Positions 5,249 through 60,489 of a DNA stretch of 64,000 nucleotides are shown one piece after another. The first letter of the stretch is position 1. Every line of letters starts with the position of its first letter. Below the pieces are notes generated by a model, which did no database searches, had not been told where the DNA came from, and saw nothing but the letters and a program-made list of their open reading frames with translations. Both the position numbers and the translations under genes were made by a program. This DNA comes from Octopus sinensis (Eukaryota): assembly GCF_006345805.1 (NCBI RefSeq), contig NC_042998.1, positions 84,506,001-84,570,000 on the forward strand. Reading direction: 5' to 3'.

Positions 5249-5623
5249 TTCCTTTTATTTGTCTGTCATTTGACTGTGGTCATGCTGGAGTGCTGCCTTT
5301 AGTTGAGCAAATCGACCCCAGGACTTATTCTTTGTAAGCCTAGTACTTATTCTATTGGTCTCTTTTGCCGAATCACTAAGTCATGAGGACAAAAACACAC
5401 CAGTATTAGTTGTCAAGCAATGTTGGGGGGACAAACACAGATACACACACACATATATATATCTATACACACGGCAGGCTTCTTTCAGTTTCCATCTACC
5501 AAATCCACTCACAAGGGTTTGGTCAGCCCGAGGCTATAGTAGAAGACACTTGCCCAATGTGTCATGCAGTGGGACTGAAACTAGAACCATGTGCTTGGTA
5601 TGTAAGCTACTTACCACACAGCC
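5249..5623 (-). mobile_element. SINE family A
   Basis: Collinear with 571-997. Confidence 0.85.
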
Positions 5624-6156
5624 TTGAATATATATCATCTCTATTGTGGACATCGTTTTAAATATTTACATGTTTAGTACATAGCAGAAGTATTAAAGCT
5701 GCAAAGGTACTGCATAATGATTCTTTTTGATTTTGACAATGCCAAAAATTCTGATGGGAGGGGGGCAAGTAATTACATCAATTCTAATACTTGACTGGTA
5801 CTTTATTTTATGAACCCCAGAAAGAATGAAAGACAAAATTGACCTTGGTGGGAATTGAGCTCAGAAAGTGAAGAACTAAAAGAAATGCCACCAAGCATTT
5901 TCTCTGGTGCACTAATAATTCTACCAAGCTCACCATTATGGCAGAATCATTAGCACTTTAGGCAAAATAATTAGAGCAATTTGTCTGTCTTTACAGTCCG
6001 AGTTCAAATCCTGCTGAATTCAACTTTGCCTTTCATCCTTTCGGAGTTAATAAAACAAGTACCAGAAGGACACCAGGATCAATATAATAAACTTACCAGC
6101 TTCCCTGAAATTACTGACCTTGCCCCAAAATTTGAAACCATTATTATTATTTCTAG

Positions 6157-14284: not shown

Positions 14285-15785
14285 ATATGTGATTCAGCAT
14301 CTAGTGCTTAGCTACCAGCTGTTGTGTTAAGAACAATTCACAGGTCCAGCTAAAAGAAATATCATTCTGAAACCAAATCAATACCTTCTCATGGCATATT
14401 ACTTAGGGACTCCTTCCATCATGATTGACCATGGGTTTTCTGTTTCTCAACAAGATGCAGGCCAAGGAAAGAATTTTTAATAAAGGGATTCTATCAACTA
14501 TCCATTCATTCAAGCTTTCTCCTCTCTACACCACTGATAATTTCCAAGGGAAAGTCAACAGCCAATAAAGCTTGGGACCAGCATCATCACAGGAACTAGA
14601 ATGAATACACTGACAATGGTTACAGTGTTCTTCTTTACTAGGTCATCAAGCGATTAAACAAAGGCTCAGGCTACATAGTAAATAAAATTCTTGATAACGA
14701 AATTAAATCAAACCATTTGAAATGTAGCGTTTTTATGAAACAGAAAACAAAGTTAAAAGTCTGAAAAGTAATTTATTTTGTCAGTTCTCAACAGTAATTA
14801 ACTGACAAAAATATATAAATTTCATTCCATTTCAACTTCCTTCTTCTAAACAATAAATTCAACTCCTCACACTCTTATGAAATTATCCACCCTCTCTGTA
14901 CCTCCATCTCCCTCTACTGTCTATATTCTCTCTTATATTGACCTTCTTGAACCTTCAGAGTTCACTCTAGTACTATATTATTACCAACTTTATATTCTTC
15001 CCAGGTATCCCCATGCCTTATATAATGCAGAGTAGACATATTTTTCCTTTAAATCAAGATACCTGTGCTTGAATCTCTATCATAGCCACCTCCCCACAAA
15101 TACATTCCCACTCAGACGAGGGTTTTTTCCCTTTTCGTTTCTTGTAAGTTACACAATACACACTGCAAAAGTGATTGGCATTAGGAAGAGCACCCAACTG
15201 AAGAAATCATGCCAAAACTGACATTGAAGTATTGTTCAGTCCTGTGGCTTGTCAGATCCTATCAAACCATCCAACCCATGCTAGCATTTTCTCCCTAACT
15301 ACAGAGAACTGCATTCCTACCTGACCCCTAAATCATTCCTCTTTTTCACTCTCCCATCACCTTTTTTTCTATTGAAAGCATAGTCTCCAAAATGTTACAA
15401 TTCTTTCTCCTCTTAAGCATTAAACTAATTCAAAATTTGTTAAAACTTGTCCCTCCAGTGTTGTTTTTTTGCACTCATTGCTTAAAGGGTGCTCCAGCAT
15501 GGCCGCAGTCAAATGACTGAAACAAGTAAAAGAATATATATATAGTGGGGCTCTGAAAGGGGTCTCAGGGAGTAGTGTCCCTACCTTCCTGAGCTAGTTT
15601 TTCACCACATTTCTTAAAAATCATAGTAGATGCAACACCCAGAATGGGAATCAAACACATGATCATGCAATTATAAGTGCAACACTTAAACCACTGAGCT
15701 ATGCACTTTCTAAATAAACATAAACATATATATATATATATATATATATATAACCCAAAAATAAGCAACAAGAATGGATCAGTAG

Positions 15786-15871
15786 TTTAGTACAATTGTT
15801 TCATACTACAAACATTTTATTAAAGCTGCAAATATTACAGCAAATATAATGTCAAGTACTCTTCAGCTAAA
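15786..15871 (-). ncRNA. type I hammerhead ribozyme (minus-strand copy)
   Basis: Minus strand: TTTAG-CTGAAGA-GTACT...AGTAT-GAAA-CAATTG-TA-CTAAA. Confidence 0.85.
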
Positions 15872-16280
15872 TTTCATATAGGTTTTCCAAACATCTTAGA
15901 GAGTGTAAATATCCTTATAAAGTTATAGAAGTGAGTTCCAGGAACTTGAAATAAGATTCCAAGCAGACTATATATGTTTTCCAACAATACAAAGTTATTA
16001 AATTAATTATTGACATCTCAGAGAAGGTAAATCTACTCATAAAGATGTGGATAACAGTTAGATGCGAACTTAACCGTGGTCTGATCGGCATCTTTCCTCA
16101 TGTTTCTTGAAATTTATATCCACATCTTCTCTGAGATGTCAATAATTAATTTAATAACTTTGTATTGTTGGAAAACATATATAGTCTGCTTGGAATCTTA
16201 CTTCAAGTTCCTAGCACTCACTTCTATAACTTTATAAGGATATTTACACTCTCTAAGATGTTTGGAAAGCCTATATGAAA

Positions 16281-16366
16281 TTTAGCTGAAGAGTACTTGA
16301 CATTATATTTGCTGTAATATTTGCAGCTTTAATAAAATGTTTATAGTATGAAACAATTGTACTAAA
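16281..16366 (+). ncRNA. type I hammerhead ribozyme
   Basis: Stem I TTTAG/CTAAA, core CTGAAGA (16286-16292), extended stem II GTACT/AGTAT, GAAA (16350-16353), palindromic stem III ACAATTGT, GUA triplet with cleavage predicted after 16361. Confidence 0.85.
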
Positions 16367-16498
16367 CTACTGATCCATTCTTGTTGCTTATTTTTTGGTT
16401 ATAATCACCCCACATCATTTTATGGTTAATACCATAAAAAAATTCTGGTGCATCTAAGTACCATATTCTTTTGAATCTAAATTGTTTTGCTGAAATAT

Positions 16499-16532
<34 letters not shown>

Positions 16533-16537
<5 letters not shown>

Positions 16538-25665: not shown

Positions 25666-26409
25666 CATGATTCTCAAACAGGTTAGATCAATCATGGTGT
25701 AGATATTTTTGCATTAGAAACATGCATTATCTAAGGTACTGAATGAACCTAAATTGTAGTTTGACATGTTGCAGTAGTGGTATTCATACCCCTCAAATAC
25801 CAACTAAAACAAAATCAGCAGAAGGATTGATATTAGTGCCCCAGCATCATTATAGCTTGCTTGTTGGAACCAGTAAAAAGATTATACATACATGCATACA
25901 TACCTCATTGTCTAAACATTCACTTTTCCATGCTTCAATGAGTCAGATAGAATTTGAGGGGCAGATTTTCTACAGCCAGCTACCTTTCTATCACCAACTC
26001 ATACCCATTTCCAAGCAAGGTAACACTTCCCAGGCTCAGCCATGTTCTCATAGAAGAATGAAAGCAAAAGAAACCACTTGTATGGCAGTGACACTCGTTT
26101 GCAACTATCATGCAATATACAGGCAAGTGAACAGTAACACACACATAACAAGTTTCTTTCAATTTCCATTTACCAAATCCACTTTCAAGGCTTTGGTTGG
26201 CCCATGGCTATAGTAATAGACATTTATCTAAAGAGTCACCCAGTGGGACTGAACACAACATCATGTGGTTGGGAAGCAAACTTCTCATCACAGCTATGCC
26301 TGCTTAAACCATCAATTCTCTATACTCAAAACTATTCCCTCAGATTTACTACTACTTACCTACCTACCTATCAAGCATTCACAAAGGAAGACAGACAGAC
26401 AGACTGACT

Positions 26410-34642: not shown

Positions 34643-34997
34643 TACTCTTTTACTTGTTTCATTCATTTGACTGTGGCCATGTTTGAGCACTGCCTTTTAG
34701 TCAAAGAAATCGACCCCAGGACATTCTTTGTAAGCTTGGTACTTATTCTATCGGTCTTGTTTGCCGAACCACTAAGTTACAGGGACACAAGCATACCAAC
34801 ATCAGTTGTCAGGCGATGGTGATGGACACACACACACATAATGGGATTCTTTCAGTTTCCGTCTACCAAATCCACTCACAAGGCTTTGGTTGACCTGAGG
34901 ATATAGTAAAAGACACTTGCCTAAAGTGTCACGCAATGAGACTGAACCCAGAACCATGTGGTTGAGAAGCAAGCTTCTTATCACACAGCCACTCCTG
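34643..34997 (-). mobile_element. SINE family A nested in an older SINE
   Basis: Full-length copy; the flanks (34378-34640 and 35020-35190) form an older A-head/RTE-tail SINE. Confidence 0.85.
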
Positions 34998-46513: not shown

Positions 46514-46566
<53 letters not shown>

Positions 46567-46722
46567 GGGCTTCTTTCCGCTTCAATCAACCAAATCCACT
46601 CACAAGTCTTTGGTCAACCCAAGGCTATAGTAGAAGAAAATTGTCCAAGATGCCATGCAGTGGGACTGAACCCGGAACCATGTGGTTGGAAAGCAAGCTT
46701 CTTACTACACAGCCATGCCTGC
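46289..46722 (-). mobile_element. SINE family A, full length
   Basis: Collinear with 571-997, long (TA)n centre. Confidence 0.88.
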
Positions 46723-55836: not shown

Positions 55837-57804
55837 TAAGTATGGAAAACAAATTTTGGAAAAATTAAAAAGTTTTTTTTGAAGAATATTTGTATAGTAT
55901 TCAAATACAAAGTGCATTTTCCTTGTTTCTGCCTGTCTCTGTCTCTTGTTTACTCTTGTGAGTTGGAGGTCATTGTGAATTCTTGGTAAGGAAGAAGAAG
56001 AATGTGGGAGTGCCATGAGAATAGTATGTTAAATGGTCAAGTGCCCCGAAAGTGACCCATTGTGGATGGTAGTAGTGATTGAATTCTTGAGACATTTTTT
56101 TTAATGCTTTGTTTATAAAATTTGCGTAAGTGTTATTCTAAACAGCAATAGTGGTAAAGTTAGGAAGGAGGTGGCAGAGAGGAAGAAGATGAAGGAGAAA
56201 GAGAAGGGAGAATAAGTAGGAATATGGTCTAGTGACCTAAAAGTGGATCCTTATGGATTATAGCAGTGATTGGGACGGTTTTTTAATGAATTCTTGGGAA
56301 TCTCTTGAGTGTATCATTTTTAATATTTGCGTGTGTATTTGTGTTTATTCTAAGGCGATATGTCGTTTGTTGTAGATGCAAACAAAAGGGGTCTGTATTT
56401 TGTAATAAAGAGAGTCTCTTTACTAATTCGTTGGCTACAGGTTGTATCGTCACTGATTTGGTAGAGGGGAAAATTCTGAAGCTTGGATCGATGAGTTAGC
56501 TGAATGCTATTTTTCTGTTTTGGGGAATTTTGATCTGGGATCTGTGCAGAGCCTTTCTTTTACATAGACTGTTTTTTGTTTGGCCTATGTATTTACCCAG
56601 AGCAGGTTAGTGCATATATCAGGTTTTCTGAAGCACATGTGAAGTTGCTTTTCACTGTGAAACATTGTCCCTGTTTGAAGGAGAACTCTGATCACTCAAT
56701 TAAATTGATGCATATCCCACAGTTGGGTCTTCCGCATTTTTTTACTGAGGGCTGCTGTGTTGTTATTGAGAGTGTTTGGGCTTGTGTTAGGAGACTTTCC
56801 ATAGATTTGGGTTGTCTCTTGCTTTTTATGATGGTGTGTGTTTGGAGGATTAAATTCATTCTGTGGTCCTTTTTTAGCAGGGGAATGTATTGAGGGATGG
56901 TGTCGAAGGCTTCATTATTAAGAGGGTTGTGTGTGGATATGTATGGTAGGGCTTTTCGTTGTAAATCCTTTAATTTGGGATGTCTGAGTTCCTAGATGTT
57001 GAGTTGAATGGCACAAAAGCATATGTCAATTAGTGAAGGTGGGTAGTTCCTGGTGATGAGCTAATCCTTTAGTTCATGTAGCCATGTGTCTCTGGTGTTT
57101 GCATTAGAAACAATAGTACATATCCTTTTTGCTAGGTTGAAGGGGATATTCATTCTGGTGTGTCTGGGGTGGCATGAGTTGAACAGTAGATATTACTGTC
57201 CATGGGCTTATAGTATATATCAGTTTCTATTACATTGTTAGATTTCTTAATGAGGATGTCAAGGAAGGGAAGTTGTTGATGGCTATATTCCATCATGAAT
57301 TGAATGTTTACGTCAAGTCCATTTATATGTACTTGGAATTCTTTAAGTTTCTCTATATTTTCATGCCAAAGAATGAAACAGTCATCAAGGTATCTCTTCC
57401 AGTTATTTTCTATGTAGAGGGAGAATGGGCTGCTGTATTTTTCTAGAACATTTCAATAAAGACATCTAGATATCCCATGACTAGGTTAGCAAAGGAGGGG
57501 GCCATTCACATACCCATCGCAGTCTCCGATTTTTATTGAGAGAAGTTGTCTTTGAAGACAAAGTAGTTATTTTTCAGGATGAATTTTAGCCCTTCTATCA
57601 TGAATTCTTTTTTGATGCGACGTGGGAGTTCATTGTGGGAGTTCTTCTTCTTCCCTACCAAGAATTCACAACAATCTTGAACCCACAAGAGACAGAGACA
57701 GGCAAAAACATGAGAAATGCCATTTGTATTTGAATACTATACAAATATTCTTTGAAAAAACTTTTCTTTTAGTTTTTTCAAAATTTAATTGTTTTCCATA
57801 CTTA

Positions 57805-58143: not shown

Positions 58144-59997
58144 TCAGCGGCACGGGGGCAACAAGGTCCGGGGTACTTTGGGGATCGGGATACTTTGGGG
58201 ATCCAGGGTACTTTGGGGATCCGGGGTACTTAGAATGGGTAGGGGGTATGGGGTAGGGGGTATGGGGTAGGGGGTATGGGGTAGGGGGTATGTGGAATTG
58301 CTGCAGAAAGCAGCCCGGGTCTTTGTAGTCACAGCATATCTCCAGAGATCTCGGTCCTTCGCCATTGCCTCAGTGAGGCCCAATGCTCTGAGGTCATGCT
58401 TGACTACCTCATCCCATGTCTTCCTGGGTCTACCTCTCCCCCTGATACCTTCAACTGTTTGGGAGTGGCACTTCTTCACACATCTCTCTTCATCCATCCG
58501 CAGCACATGACCATACCATCGCAAGCGTCGCTCTTGCACACCACATCTGATGCTTCTTATATCCAGCATTTCTCTCAGGATGCTTACACTCTGTCTTGCG
58601 TGCACACTGACACTACACATCCAGCGGATCATGCTAGCTTCATTTCTTTCAAGTCTACGCATGTCTTCTGCAGTCACAGCCCATGTTTCATTACCGTGAA
58701 GCATGGCAGTTTGCACACATGCATCATACAATCTACCTTTTGCTCTGAGGGAGAGACCTTTTGTTGCCAGTAGGGGTAGGAGCTTTCTGAACTTTGCCCA
58801 GGCTATTCGTATTCTAGTGGTGATACTCTCTGTGCATCCACCTCCGCTACTAACTTGGTCACCCAGGTAGCGGAAACTATCAACTACTTCTAGTTTCTCT
58901 CCCTGGAGTGTGATGGAATCTGTTTTCTGAGTGTCTGTTGTGTCTATTGTCCCTGTGCATCTGCCGCACATGAAAGCTATCTTATCTGTTAATTTCCCTT
59001 TAATGTTGCTGCACCTCTTATGTGTCCATAACTTACATTGGGTGCATCTTATGGAGTTTCTACCTGTACTTTTCCTACAGGTTGAGCAGGGCCACCTACC
59101 CGAGGGGGTGTGTGCTGAGTACCTCTTGCTGCTTACTAATACTTTGGTCTTTGCTACATTTATTCTAAGGCCCTTTGATTCCAACCCTTGCTTCCACACC
59201 CGAAATTTCTCTTCTAGTTCCGGTAGTGATTCTGCTATGAGAGCTAGGTCATCGGCATAGAGGAGCTCCCAGGGGCATCCCGTTTTGAATTCCTCTGTTA
59301 TTGCCTGAAGGACTATGATGAATAAAAGGGGACTGAGGGCTGAGCCCTGGTGCACACCTACTTCTACCCGGAATTCTTCACTATATTCGTTGCCAATCCT
59401 AACCTTGCTGACAGCCTCTCTGTATAGAGCCTGTACAGCCCTTATTAGCCATTCTTCAATCTCCAGTTTCCGCATCGACCACCAGATAAGGGAACGGGGA
59501 ACCCTGTCAAAGGCTTTCTCCAAGTCTACAAAAGCTATGTAGAGGGGTTTATCTTTAGCTAGGTACTTCTCCTGCAGTTGTCGGACCAGGAATATAGCAT
59601 CAGTGGTGCTTCTACCTGGTACAAAACCGAACTGCATTTCATCTAAACAAATTCTCTCCCTAATGAGATTGGTTATGACCTTCTCTGAGACCTTCATCAC
59701 CTGGTCCAACAGTTTGATACCTCTGTAGTTATTTCTATCTAGAGCATCACCCTTACCCTTGTAGCAGTTGACTATGGTGCTGCTGCACCAGTCATTGGGT
59801 ATGACTCCATTGTGAACTACCTGGTTTACAATGCGGGTGACTATGGCATAGCCCACATAGCCTTCATGTAAAGATTCAGCAGTGATTCCTGATAGGCCAG
59901 GGGCTTTGCCTGGTTTCATATCCTTAATTGCCTTATCTACAAGGGAGCTGTCTATTCGGGTAGCTGGTCCCTCTACTGGGTCAACATTTGGCAGGCT
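58144..59997 (-). CDS. RTE LINE ORF remnant: reverse transcriptase + PHD-type Cys/His finger + C-terminal domain; no endonuclease and no true start
   Basis: Motifs KAPG, NYRGIKLL, QFGFVPGRST, DLEKAFDRV, GVHQGSALSPLLF, LLYADDLAL, FRYLG, RLRWYGHVLRM, RGRPRKTW; no stops. Confidence 0.93.
   Translation of the reverse strand, partial: SLPNVDPVEGPATRIDSSLVDKAIKDMKPGKAPGLSGITAESLHEGYVGYAIVTRIVNQVVHNGVIPNDWCSSTIVNCYKGKGDALDRNNYRGIKLLDQVMKVSEKVITNLIRERICLDEMQFGFVPGRSTTDAIFLVRQLQEKYLAKDKPLYIAFVDLEKAFDRVPRSLIWWSMRKLEIEEWLIRAVQALYREAVSKVRIGNEYSEEFRVEVGVHQGSALSPLLFIIVLQAITEEFKTGCPWELLYADDLALIAESLPELEEKFRVWKQGLESKGLRINVAKTKVLVSSKRYSAHTPSGRWPCSTCRKSTGRNSIRCTQCKLWTHKRCSNIKGKLTDKIAFMCGRCTGTIDTTDTQKTDSITLQGEKLEVVDSFRYLGDQVSSGGGCTESITTRIRIAWAKFRKLLPLLATKGLSLRAKGRLYDACVQTAMLHGNETWAVTAEDMRRLERNEASMIRWMCSVSVHARQSVSILREMLDIRSIRCGVQERRLRWYGHVLRMDEERCVKKCHSQTVEGIRGRGRPRKTWDEVVKHDLRALGLTEAMAKDRDLWRYAVTTKTRAAFCSNSTYPLPHTPYPIPPTPYPLPILSTPDPQSTLDPQSIPIPKVPRTLLPPCR
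58169..58290 (+). repeat. G-rich tandem repeats: 17-bp GGGGTACTTTGGGGATC x~4, then 14-bp GGGGTAGGGGGTAT x~4
   Basis: Seen directly, in the LINE 3' region. Confidence 0.9.
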
Positions 59998-60005
59998 TAT
60001 ATATA

Positions 60006-60050
<45 letters not shown>

Positions 60051-60053
60051 ATA

Positions 60054-60198
60054 TTGGCGTTAGGAAGGGCATCCAGCCGTAGAAACACTGCCAGATTTGA
60101 CTGGGCCTGATGAAGCCTTCTGGCTTCACAGACCCCAGTAGAACCGTCCAACCCATGCTAGCATGGAAAATGGACGCTAAACGATGATGATAATGATG
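60054..60198 (+). mobile_element. RTE-LINE 3' tail, inverted relative to the adjacent LINE
   Basis: TTGGCGTTAGGAAGGGCATCCAGCC...GGACGCTAAACGATGATGAT. Confidence 0.88.
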
Positions 60199-60489
60199 AG
60201 AGATAGAGATCTAGAGATATTATCGGACAGACAGATGGGCAGACATGCAGGTAGAAGGGAAGACAGGTAGATATGTAGGCAAGAAGACAGGTAAACAGAC
60301 AGGGAAGTAAGCGGGACAGGTAAATGGGTAGATAGGTGGGCTGGACATTTTTTTTTCTTCTGTTGCAGGAGTTGTACTGAAATGTTTGTAAATCTGTAAT
60401 GGAATGTTAAAGGTGTTTTACAGTTGAATACATATGTGAGTAGCAACCACTCAGATGTGAAGGAAGAGGGAGCACTATTTTCAGCTTGG

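What the first reader, a model, noticed from the sequence alone, without database searches (positions are those of the whole stretch)
15749..16403. Near-perfect 278-bp-arm foldback encoding a hammerhead ribozyme on each strand
Seen: arms 15749-16026 and 16126-16403 are near-perfect reverse complements around a ~100-nt spacer. Each holds a complete type I hammerhead with CUGAAGA/GAAA core, a 5-bp stem I, an unusually long bulged stem II, palindromic stem III ACAAUUGU and a GUA site. Established: Penelope-like elements carry minimal type I hammerheads with palindromic stem III, proposed to act as dimers, and often form inverted pLTRs. Inference: whichever strand is transcribed, the RNA contains one ribozyme plus its upstream antisense copy. 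Cleavage would then compete with a long dsRNA that ADAR or Dicer could act on, making a self-masking ribozyme cassette. No coding remnant is visible, so it may be a non-autonomous mobile hairpin.
Basis: partly seen in the sequence, partly recalled or inferred. Interest (0 to 1): 0.8.

Follow-up and report, generated by a model that had tools for sequence, protein, structure and literature searches.

The report
Truncated Penelope retrotransposon with inverted end
This hairpin is a short broken copy of a common jumping gene (a Penelope-like retrotransposon) that landed with its end duplicated back-to-front, which puts its predicted self-cutting RNA motif on both strands, likely as an ordinary by-product of insertion rather than as a purpose-built switch.

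Summary
The foldback (278-nt arms, 98%) and both type I hammerhead motifs are real. But this is not a stand-alone hairpin. It is one 5'-truncated insertion of a repeat (1,474 candidates in this genome) into (TA)n. Longer copies carry a GIY-YIG endonuclease and reverse transcriptase with the Hydra-clade motifs of Penelope-like elements (PLEs). The 'spacer' is element sequence, and the right copy runs on about 93 nt, to about 16496, as the PLE 'tail'. Head-to-head inversions are common: 38 of 75 sampled insertion clusters, each with its own junction, so the hairpin does not move as a unit. Opposite-strand hammerhead pairs in PLEs are already published. Stem covariation across subfamilies suggests the ribozyme is under selection in the parent element; Rfam misses it. 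What is new is modest: a family not among the published Hydra families I could check, a long stem II (57 nt), and a sharp rule. In 33 of 38 inverted insertions exactly one arm carries the tail, and 8 of 8 do in a second family. This fits two priming events on uncut RNA. Masking of the ribozyme is predicted only if the locus is transcribed, which I could not show.

The parts
15726..15752 (.). (TA)n run, left flank and insertion target
   Evidence: 77 of 92 sampled 3' ends abut (TA)3 or longer
15749..16053 (-). Inverted copy of the element's 3' end, -260 to +42 relative to the predicted ribozyme cut (short end, no tail)
15786..15871 (-). Type I hammerhead motif, predicted cut at 15791
16052..16053 (.). 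Head-to-head junction, 1-2 nt overlap (TA), not found at any other sampled locus
16053..16403 (+). 5'-truncated main copy, 3' UTR/pLTR -325 to +42, with an 18-nt deletion at 16125/16126
16281..16366 (+). Type I hammerhead motif: stem I 16281-16285/16362-16366, CUGAAGA 16286-16292, stem II 16293-16349, GAAA 16350-16353, palindrome 16353-16360, predicted cut after A16361
16404..16496 (+). PLE 'tail' (about +43 to +139), on this arm only; in a full-length sister copy the equivalent stretch opens the next unit's 5' UTR
16497..16535 (.). TA-rich right flank, (TA)n at 16507-16535

Best explanation
The foldback is one 5'-truncated insertion of a Penelope-like retrotransposon with Hydra-clade motifs into a (TA)n run, carrying a second copy of the element's 3' end inverted head-to-head, so its predicted 3'-UTR hammerhead lies on both strands, likely as a by-product of integration. 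Shown: repeat family, RT/endonuclease in longer copies, (TA)n flanks, two fixed 3' ends (+42 and about +139 after the ribozyme cut site), one of each per inverted insertion, arms that share subfamily variants, and junctions that differ from locus to locus. Inferred mechanism (about 0.6 on its own): the endonuclease cuts both strands of the (TA)n target. Each 3'-OH primes a cDNA on element RNA not yet cut by the ribozyme, one at +42 and one at +139; both sites end in TA-like bases that could pair with the target. The two cDNAs stop early, join by microhomology and are filled in. The ribozyme likely serves the parent element (slow, dimer- or protein-assisted processing of tandem transcripts). 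In this copy it is a passenger and would be masked by the upstream antisense arm in any read-through RNA.
For: 1,474 candidates for the arm, 51 matches at 87-100% among the 40 candidates scored. L061 matches the window copy at 87-91% and continues upstream into an open endonuclease frame (P0001; Pfam GIY-YIG E=2e-4, 22.1 bits against a cut-off of 22.6) and a YRDD RT piece, with its own inverted tail-bearing end. Sister copies carry 709-922-aa RT-EN frames; L086 and L095 have RWK and DKT, and all have YRDD. L095 is pLTR-ORF-pLTR. 38 of 75 clusters are head-to-head. 33 of these 38 pair one tail end with one short end, and none is short/short or tail/tail; 8 of 8 do so in an unrelated second family. 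Arms agree at 188 of 208 polymorphic sites against 128 expected; the window agrees at 19 of 19. Published precedents. In vitro, a PLE protein cuts and extends both strands, starts at two RNA sites bounding the tail and uses uncleaved RNA (PMC11167929).
Against: No intact copy of the window's own subfamily was found; the full-length example (L095) is a sister at 70% endonuclease identity. No tree against published Hydra proteins was built. The unit is about 4.6 kb where published Hydra elements are generally under 3 kb. One split locus (L063) has tails on both arms. 11 of the 33 tail/short pairs have near-symmetric junctions, which also fits snap-back self-priming, and gene conversion could explain part of the arm concordance. 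The loci are top hits of four searches, not a random sample.
Confidence: 0.9

Rival explanations
1. Same element, but the inversion forms by snap-back self-priming of one cDNA or antisense template (the published proposal), with the second end trimmed by the endonuclease, not by two primings.
For: 12 of 38 junctions are symmetric within 10 nt against 2.1 by permutation; some sit on palindromes (ACAATTGT, CATG). Self-priming is proposed in PMC3846280. The window itself fits: its tail arm reaches further upstream.
Against: In 9 of 33 pairs the tail is on the arm that reaches less far upstream. A copy folded back from a single cDNA cannot hold both the tail and the longer upstream reach unless there is a further template jump.
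Confidence: 0.3
2. A non-autonomous mobile hairpin (MITE-like or retrozyme-like) that spreads as a unit and carries a self-masked ribozyme.
For: No coding sequence at this locus: tblastn of P0001 and P0002 against the window is empty. Near-perfect arms.
Against: 1 of 703 locus pairs shares a junction, and not the window's. Arm lengths vary freely. No tandem array of the unit. Coding sequence is present in longer copies.
Confidence: 0.03
3. The insertion has been co-opted by the host as a dsRNA or ribozyme regulatory element (ADAR or Dicer substrate competing with cleavage).
For: Predicted 98.5-99.9% masking. PMC5625713 reports Penelope as a massively edited repeat in lizard and very high dsRNA potential in octopus (passages).
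Against: The copy is young (arms 98% alike, other copies up to 99%) and shows ordinary decay (18-nt deletion, 6 mismatches). Only 1 of 32 inverted repeats in a 600-kb sample overlaps a strict hammerhead hit, so such foldbacks look like a minor dsRNA source.
Confidence: 0.05

Closest known systems
Hydra clade of C-terminal EN+ Penelope-like elements (Craig et al. 2021, PMC8557442), including Hydra-1_Obim from Octopus bimaculoides
   Same: RWK, DKT, YRDD, CxCX5C linker, CxxC and CxH around the conserved E and N, no CCHH, (TA)n target, type I hammerhead with palindromic stem III near the 3' end.
   Different: A different family from Hydra-1_Obim, whose hammerhead and RT sequence differ. Unit about 4.6 kb with Asn-rich stretches in the ORF and a 1.0-1.6 kb 3' UTR. 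Stem II region 55-60 nt, where the Hydra rows of File S2 are much shorter (about 25 nt or less, read by eye). Tail about 97 nt against 30-40 nt.
Penelope-13_HM (Repbase family listed in Craig 2021 Files S1/S2) and the opposite-strand hammerhead pairs of Schistosoma PLEs (Cervera and de la Pena 2014, PMC4209133)
   Same: 5'-truncated inverted copy with the hammerhead on both strands; dual min-HHRs 100-700 bp apart on opposite strands.
   Different: Only in family, stem II length and tail length; the architecture is the same.
Inverted pLTR with tail on one end (Adineta vaga Penelope, PMC3846280; anole Poseidon PAc, PMC11167929)
   Same: Head-to-head inversion, tail on one of the two inverted pLTRs, Asn-rich ORF inserts, two RT start sites bounding the tail.
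   Different: Described there as optional and qualitative; here counted as a near-strict one-tail rule in two families with long tails (about 97 and 152 nt). In PAc the ORF starts inside the ribozyme; in L095 the ATG is about 200 nt after the cut site.
Non-LTR retrozymes (bioRxiv 10.64898/2026.07.22.740005)
   Same: Non-coding, type I hammerhead, PLE-pLTR-derived.
   Different: Retrozymes are head-to-tail tandem arrays; this is a single head-to-head insertion.

Membership tests
Hydra-clade PLE | Single ORF with RT and C-terminal GIY-YIG endonuclease | tested here: met
   Met in longer copies, not at the window itself: L061 (87-91% to the window copy) has the endonuclease frame and a YRDD piece; L084-L086 and L095-L100 have 709-922-aa frames.
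Hydra-clade PLE | RWK motif and DKG changed to DKT | tested here: met
   P0002 reads IRRIRWK and VPADKTGN; sister subfamily, 75% to the window's 3' end.
Hydra-clade PLE | CxCX5C linker, CxxC and CxH flanking conserved E/N, no CCHH | tested here: met
   P0001 reads CNCRIRSNC, CQLC..E and N..CIH; no CCHH seen by eye, compared with the definition.
Hydra-clade PLE | Insertion into (TA)n | tested here: met
   77 of 92 3' ends; both window flanks.
Hydra-clade PLE | Hammerhead near the 3' end, sense strand | tested here: met
   About 1 kb downstream of the endonuclease stop, same strand.
Hydra-clade PLE | Generally short (<3 kb); descriptive in the paper, not diagnostic | tested here: not met
   About 4.6 kb from hammerhead to hammerhead in L095.
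Hydra-clade PLE | Placement in the RT phylogeny; absence of IFD and CxC | not tested
   Reference proteins were seen only as text in the supplement; motif comparison by eye only.
Type I hammerhead ribozyme (PLE type) | CUGANGA and GAAA core, NUH site, stems I-III, palindromic stem III | tested here: met
   93% of cells paired, 21 cells with both sides changed, 0 of 500 shuffles as high (the shuffles ignore relatedness).
Type I hammerhead ribozyme (PLE type) | G10.1-C11.1 pair | tested here: not met
   G-U in the window; A-U 10, G-U 8, G-C 2, unpaired 7 of 27. Many Hydra rows in File S2 also have U on both sides here.
Type I hammerhead ribozyme (PLE type) | Match to an Rfam hammerhead model | tested here: not met
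   No match at gathering score or at E<=10; the long stem II is the likely reason (inference).
Type I hammerhead ribozyme (PLE type) | Self-cleavage | not testable with these tools
   Needs an in vitro assay.
MITE / mobile hairpin | Copies share both termini and the internal junction | tested here: not met
Non-LTR retrozyme | Head-to-tail tandem units, each with a hammerhead | tested here: not met

The most novel reading that the evidence does not exclude
Penelope-like elements integrate by double priming: a reverse transcriptase dimer primes both strands of the cut (TA)n target at two fixed sites of uncut element RNA, so every inverted insertion carries exactly one tail. Octopod Hydra families, with tails of about 97 and 152 nt and thousands of young copies, record this directly. 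Their hammerheads also form a widespread long-stem-II class (45-82 nt in at least nine unrelated motifs) that current ribozyme models miss.
Probability: 0.4. Interest if true: 0.6.

Novelty: new member of a known kind. Interest (0 to 1): 0.3.

Why it matters
The locus itself is ordinary transposon debris. Its value is as a pointer. How PLEs form inverted ends and tails is an open question (stated in PMC8557442). The one-tail rule in two families, the shared variants between arms, and the 9 cases with the tail on the shorter arm make the two-priming model testable by a genome census and in vitro. The long-stem-II hammerheads escape Rfam, so ribozyme counts in this lineage are probably underestimated (roughly 3,000-53,000 motifs by extrapolation from 600 kb).

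Tried and rejected
Rfam: no hammerhead hit; the best match, MIR1435 (37 bits against a gathering score of 94), only reflects the hairpin. RNAalifold on the 27-row alignment did not recover the hammerhead fold, so pairs were counted on a structure I named; helix 22-25/66-69 is partly misaligned there. Expression: no RNA holder listed. Four contig sets laid at 90% covered the flanks, but no listed piece spanned the hairpin and the differences seen match paralogous copies, so they say nothing on transcription, editing or an empty site. ADAR footprint in the DNA copies: none (A>G 0.0086 vs T>C 0.0110 per site on the sense strand). PLE foldbacks as the main dsRNA source: not supported (1 of 32 inverted repeats in 600 kb; arms without a hammerhead would be missed). 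Protein search for longer relatives of P0001 found nothing. Pfam did not recognise the RT of P0002. The L095 row of the regional identity test was dropped because the script picked another family's cut site. I checked whether a second long-stem-II family was a Naiad: it carries a Hydra-like C-terminal endonuclease instead. Earlier findings of the scan: nothing returned. Lunse et al. 2016 is not held.

Full report
Observation. Each arm carries a complete type I hammerhead motif (5-bp stem I, CUGAAGA, 57-nt stem II, GAAA, ACAAUUGU, GUA). My strict descriptor found only these 2 hits in the window, and 0, 1, 1, 0 hits in four 600-kb controls. Rfam does not detect them. As a monomer the hammerhead fold is predicted 4 kcal/mol above the minimum-energy fold. 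That fits the published view that PLE hammerheads need a dimer or a protein.

Identity. The arm is a repeat. It gave 1,474 candidates, of which 40 were scored, yielding 51 matches at 87-100%. The host genome is 2.7 Gb. The closest named proteins of the element come from Argonauta and Octopus, so the host is probably an octopod (inference). Following copies upstream leads through about 1 kb of 3' UTR into an endonuclease frame (P0001; Pfam GIY-YIG E=2e-4, just under the cut-off) and an RT piece with YRDD (L061). L061 is 87-91% identical to the window's copy and joins at about 80% DNA identity to copies with 709-922-aa RT-EN frames. Together these proteins show the RWK, DKT, CxCX5C, CxxC and CxH motifs and lack CCHH, which are features that define the Hydra clade (section 11 of PMC8557442). 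The endonuclease search returned 19,509 candidates, 150 scored. L095, a sister copy at 70% endonuclease identity, is pLTR-ORF-pLTR: after the upstream ribozyme the tail runs into a 5' UTR and an ATG about 200 nt past the cut site, while the downstream pLTR ends at about +42 in (TA)n. The family differs from the published Hydra-1_Obim in ribozyme and RT sequence. I did not build a tree.

Anatomy of this insertion. Relative to the predicted cut site, the left arm is -260..+42 inverted (15749-16053). The right copy is -325..+139 (16053 to about 16496), with an 18-nt deletion. The two meet with a 1-2 nt overlap, and both outer ends lie in TA-rich runs.

Census. From four searches I fetched 120 loci and used 100; the 20 dropped were repeats of the same places. 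They form 75 clusters: 38 head-to-head pairs, 36 single pieces and 1 same-strand pair. These are top hits, so 38 of 75 is not a genome-wide rate. Of the 38, 33 pair one tail end (+110 to +139) with one short end (+25 to +45), 5 have one atypical end, and none is tail/tail or short/short (p=2e-10 against 50:50 for the 33). Among the longer loci, seven follow the rule (L061, L086, L091, L093, L097, L099, L100) and one split locus (L063) has tails on both arms. A second, unrelated and very young family (99-100% identity, 941 candidates; Hydra-like endonuclease) repeats the rule: 8 of 8 pairs with both ribozymes in view have one end at +58 to +73 and one long end, at +218 to +225 in seven and beyond +170 in the eighth. 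Junctions differ from locus to locus: 1 of 703 pairs shares both breakpoints within 5 nt, and it is not the window's. So the hairpin does not move as a unit. Arms of one locus agree at 188 of 208 polymorphic sites (128 expected; 27 pairs with at least 50 nt overlap; window 19 of 19), so both arms likely came from one source, though gene conversion could contribute. Twelve of 38 junctions are symmetric within 10 nt against 2.1 expected. Of the 33 tail/short pairs, the tail arm reaches further upstream in 13, less far in 9, and equally in 11.

Mechanism. Shown: two fixed 3' ends downstream of the ribozyme cut site, one per arm, in (TA)n (77 of 92 ends). It follows that the template still held RNA 3' of the cut site, so it was uncut or re-ligated. 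From the literature: the anole PLE protein cuts and extends both target strands, starts at two RNA sites that bound the tail, uses unprocessed RNA and is predicted to be a dimer (PMC11167929). Inferred: each nicked strand primes its own cDNA, one at +42 and one at +139, and the two truncated cDNAs join by microhomology. The 9 loci with the tail on the shorter arm argue against snap-back of one cDNA as the only route. The symmetric and palindromic junctions fit either snap-back (proposed in PMC3846280) or two cDNAs running to the same RNA end.

Ribozyme. Across 27 copies that I chose to span the subfamilies, 93% of cells of the named structure pair and 21 show changes on both sides, in stems I, II and the stem III palindrome. 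None of 500 shuffles reached these two values, but 78 reached the count of pairs with double changes, and relatedness inflates such tests. Core positions vary less among copies (8 of 818) than low-variation UTR columns (278 of 10,713; p=0.002), and 54 of 62 pieces spanning the motif keep an intact core. Some queries included the ribozyme, which biases this upward. In three distant copies the motif is 70-80% identical to the reference against 48-65% upstream (shuffled baseline 54%), but +8..+42 is as well kept. This points to selection in the parent lineage, not at this locus. The G10.1-C11.1 pair is not kept. A read-through RNA of either strand is predicted to bury the ribozyme in the long duplex (98.5% and 99.9%). 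Whether such an RNA exists here is unknown.

Prior knowledge. Opposite-strand hammerhead pairs 100-700 bp apart in PLE fragments: PMC4209133. An inverted 5'-truncated copy with the ribozyme on both strands: Penelope-13_HM. A tail on one inverted pLTR: PMC3846280 and PMC8557442. Searches for octopus or cephalopod hammerheads and for PLE twin priming or pLTR hairpins returned no paper describing this family, the long stem II or a counted one-tail rule. The library lacks most subscription papers and Repbase, and Lunse et al. 2016 was not available. What I saw: PMC8557442, passages, section 11, supplement part 2 of 59 and supplement passages; PMC11167929 and PMC4209133, parts 1-2 of 4 each; PMC3846280, PMC5625713 and PMC6765202, passages; bioRxiv 10.64898/2026.07.22.740005, part 1 of 5 (its supplements, which may list relevant species, were not seen). 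The names RTE and Neptune for neighbouring elements are recalled, not from a call.

Verdict. A real feature and a new member of a known kind. The two-strand ribozyme is a by-product of PLE integration. Interest 0.3, carried mostly by the one-tail rule and the long-stem-II ribozymes.

Noticed in passing
L026:2150+ (G000:C18:28264648); L221-L244: A second, very young PLE family (99-100% identical copies, 941 candidates) with a 55-nt stem II hammerhead, palindrome ACACGTGT, ends at about +66 and +220, and a Hydra-like endonuclease that lacks the CxCX5C linker. A candidate for a currently active element.
   Followed up: partly
L001, L003, L006, L022, L025, L026, L061, L066, L071; L103: At least nine unrelated hammerhead-like motifs with 45-82-nt stem II regions (the window's family is one of them), most with a palindromic stem III; long stem II looks common in this genome. 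5 strict hits in 600 kb of evenly spaced samples.
   Followed up: partly
window 56400-57600 (-): Decayed PLE of another type (RT YLDD, thumb YYKP, CxxxxCxxC linker and YIGQT endonuclease; looks Neptune-like, name recalled); no Pfam hit for the 100-aa piece.
   Followed up: partly
window 58144-60210 (-): 688-aa open frame with RVT_1 (E=6e-30) and a weak PHD-like insert; a LINE retrotransposon (RTE-like, name recalled).
   Followed up: partly
L235 (G000:C154:4828-8038): 438-aa Hydra-type RT frame (RWL, DKT, YRDD), 42% to P0002, inverted next to the second family's 3' end.
   Followed up: no
L061, L084-L086, L095-L100 ORFs: Long Asn-rich in-frame stretches between RT thumb and endonuclease, as reported for rotifer Penelope elements.
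   Followed up: no
L012/L017 (G000:C4:56155698-56156914): Two copies face each other tail-to-tail about 600 bp apart, unlike the usual head-to-head pair.
   Followed up: no
P0008: A host protein annotated as an ankyrin repeat protein contains a stretch 70% identical to the element's RT over 41% of the query; either a gene-model artefact or exonisation.
   Followed up: no
window, e.g. 5441-5626, 26115-26300, 34808-34993, 46532-46717: Many copies of short dispersed repeats, in both orientations; likely SINEs.
   Followed up: no
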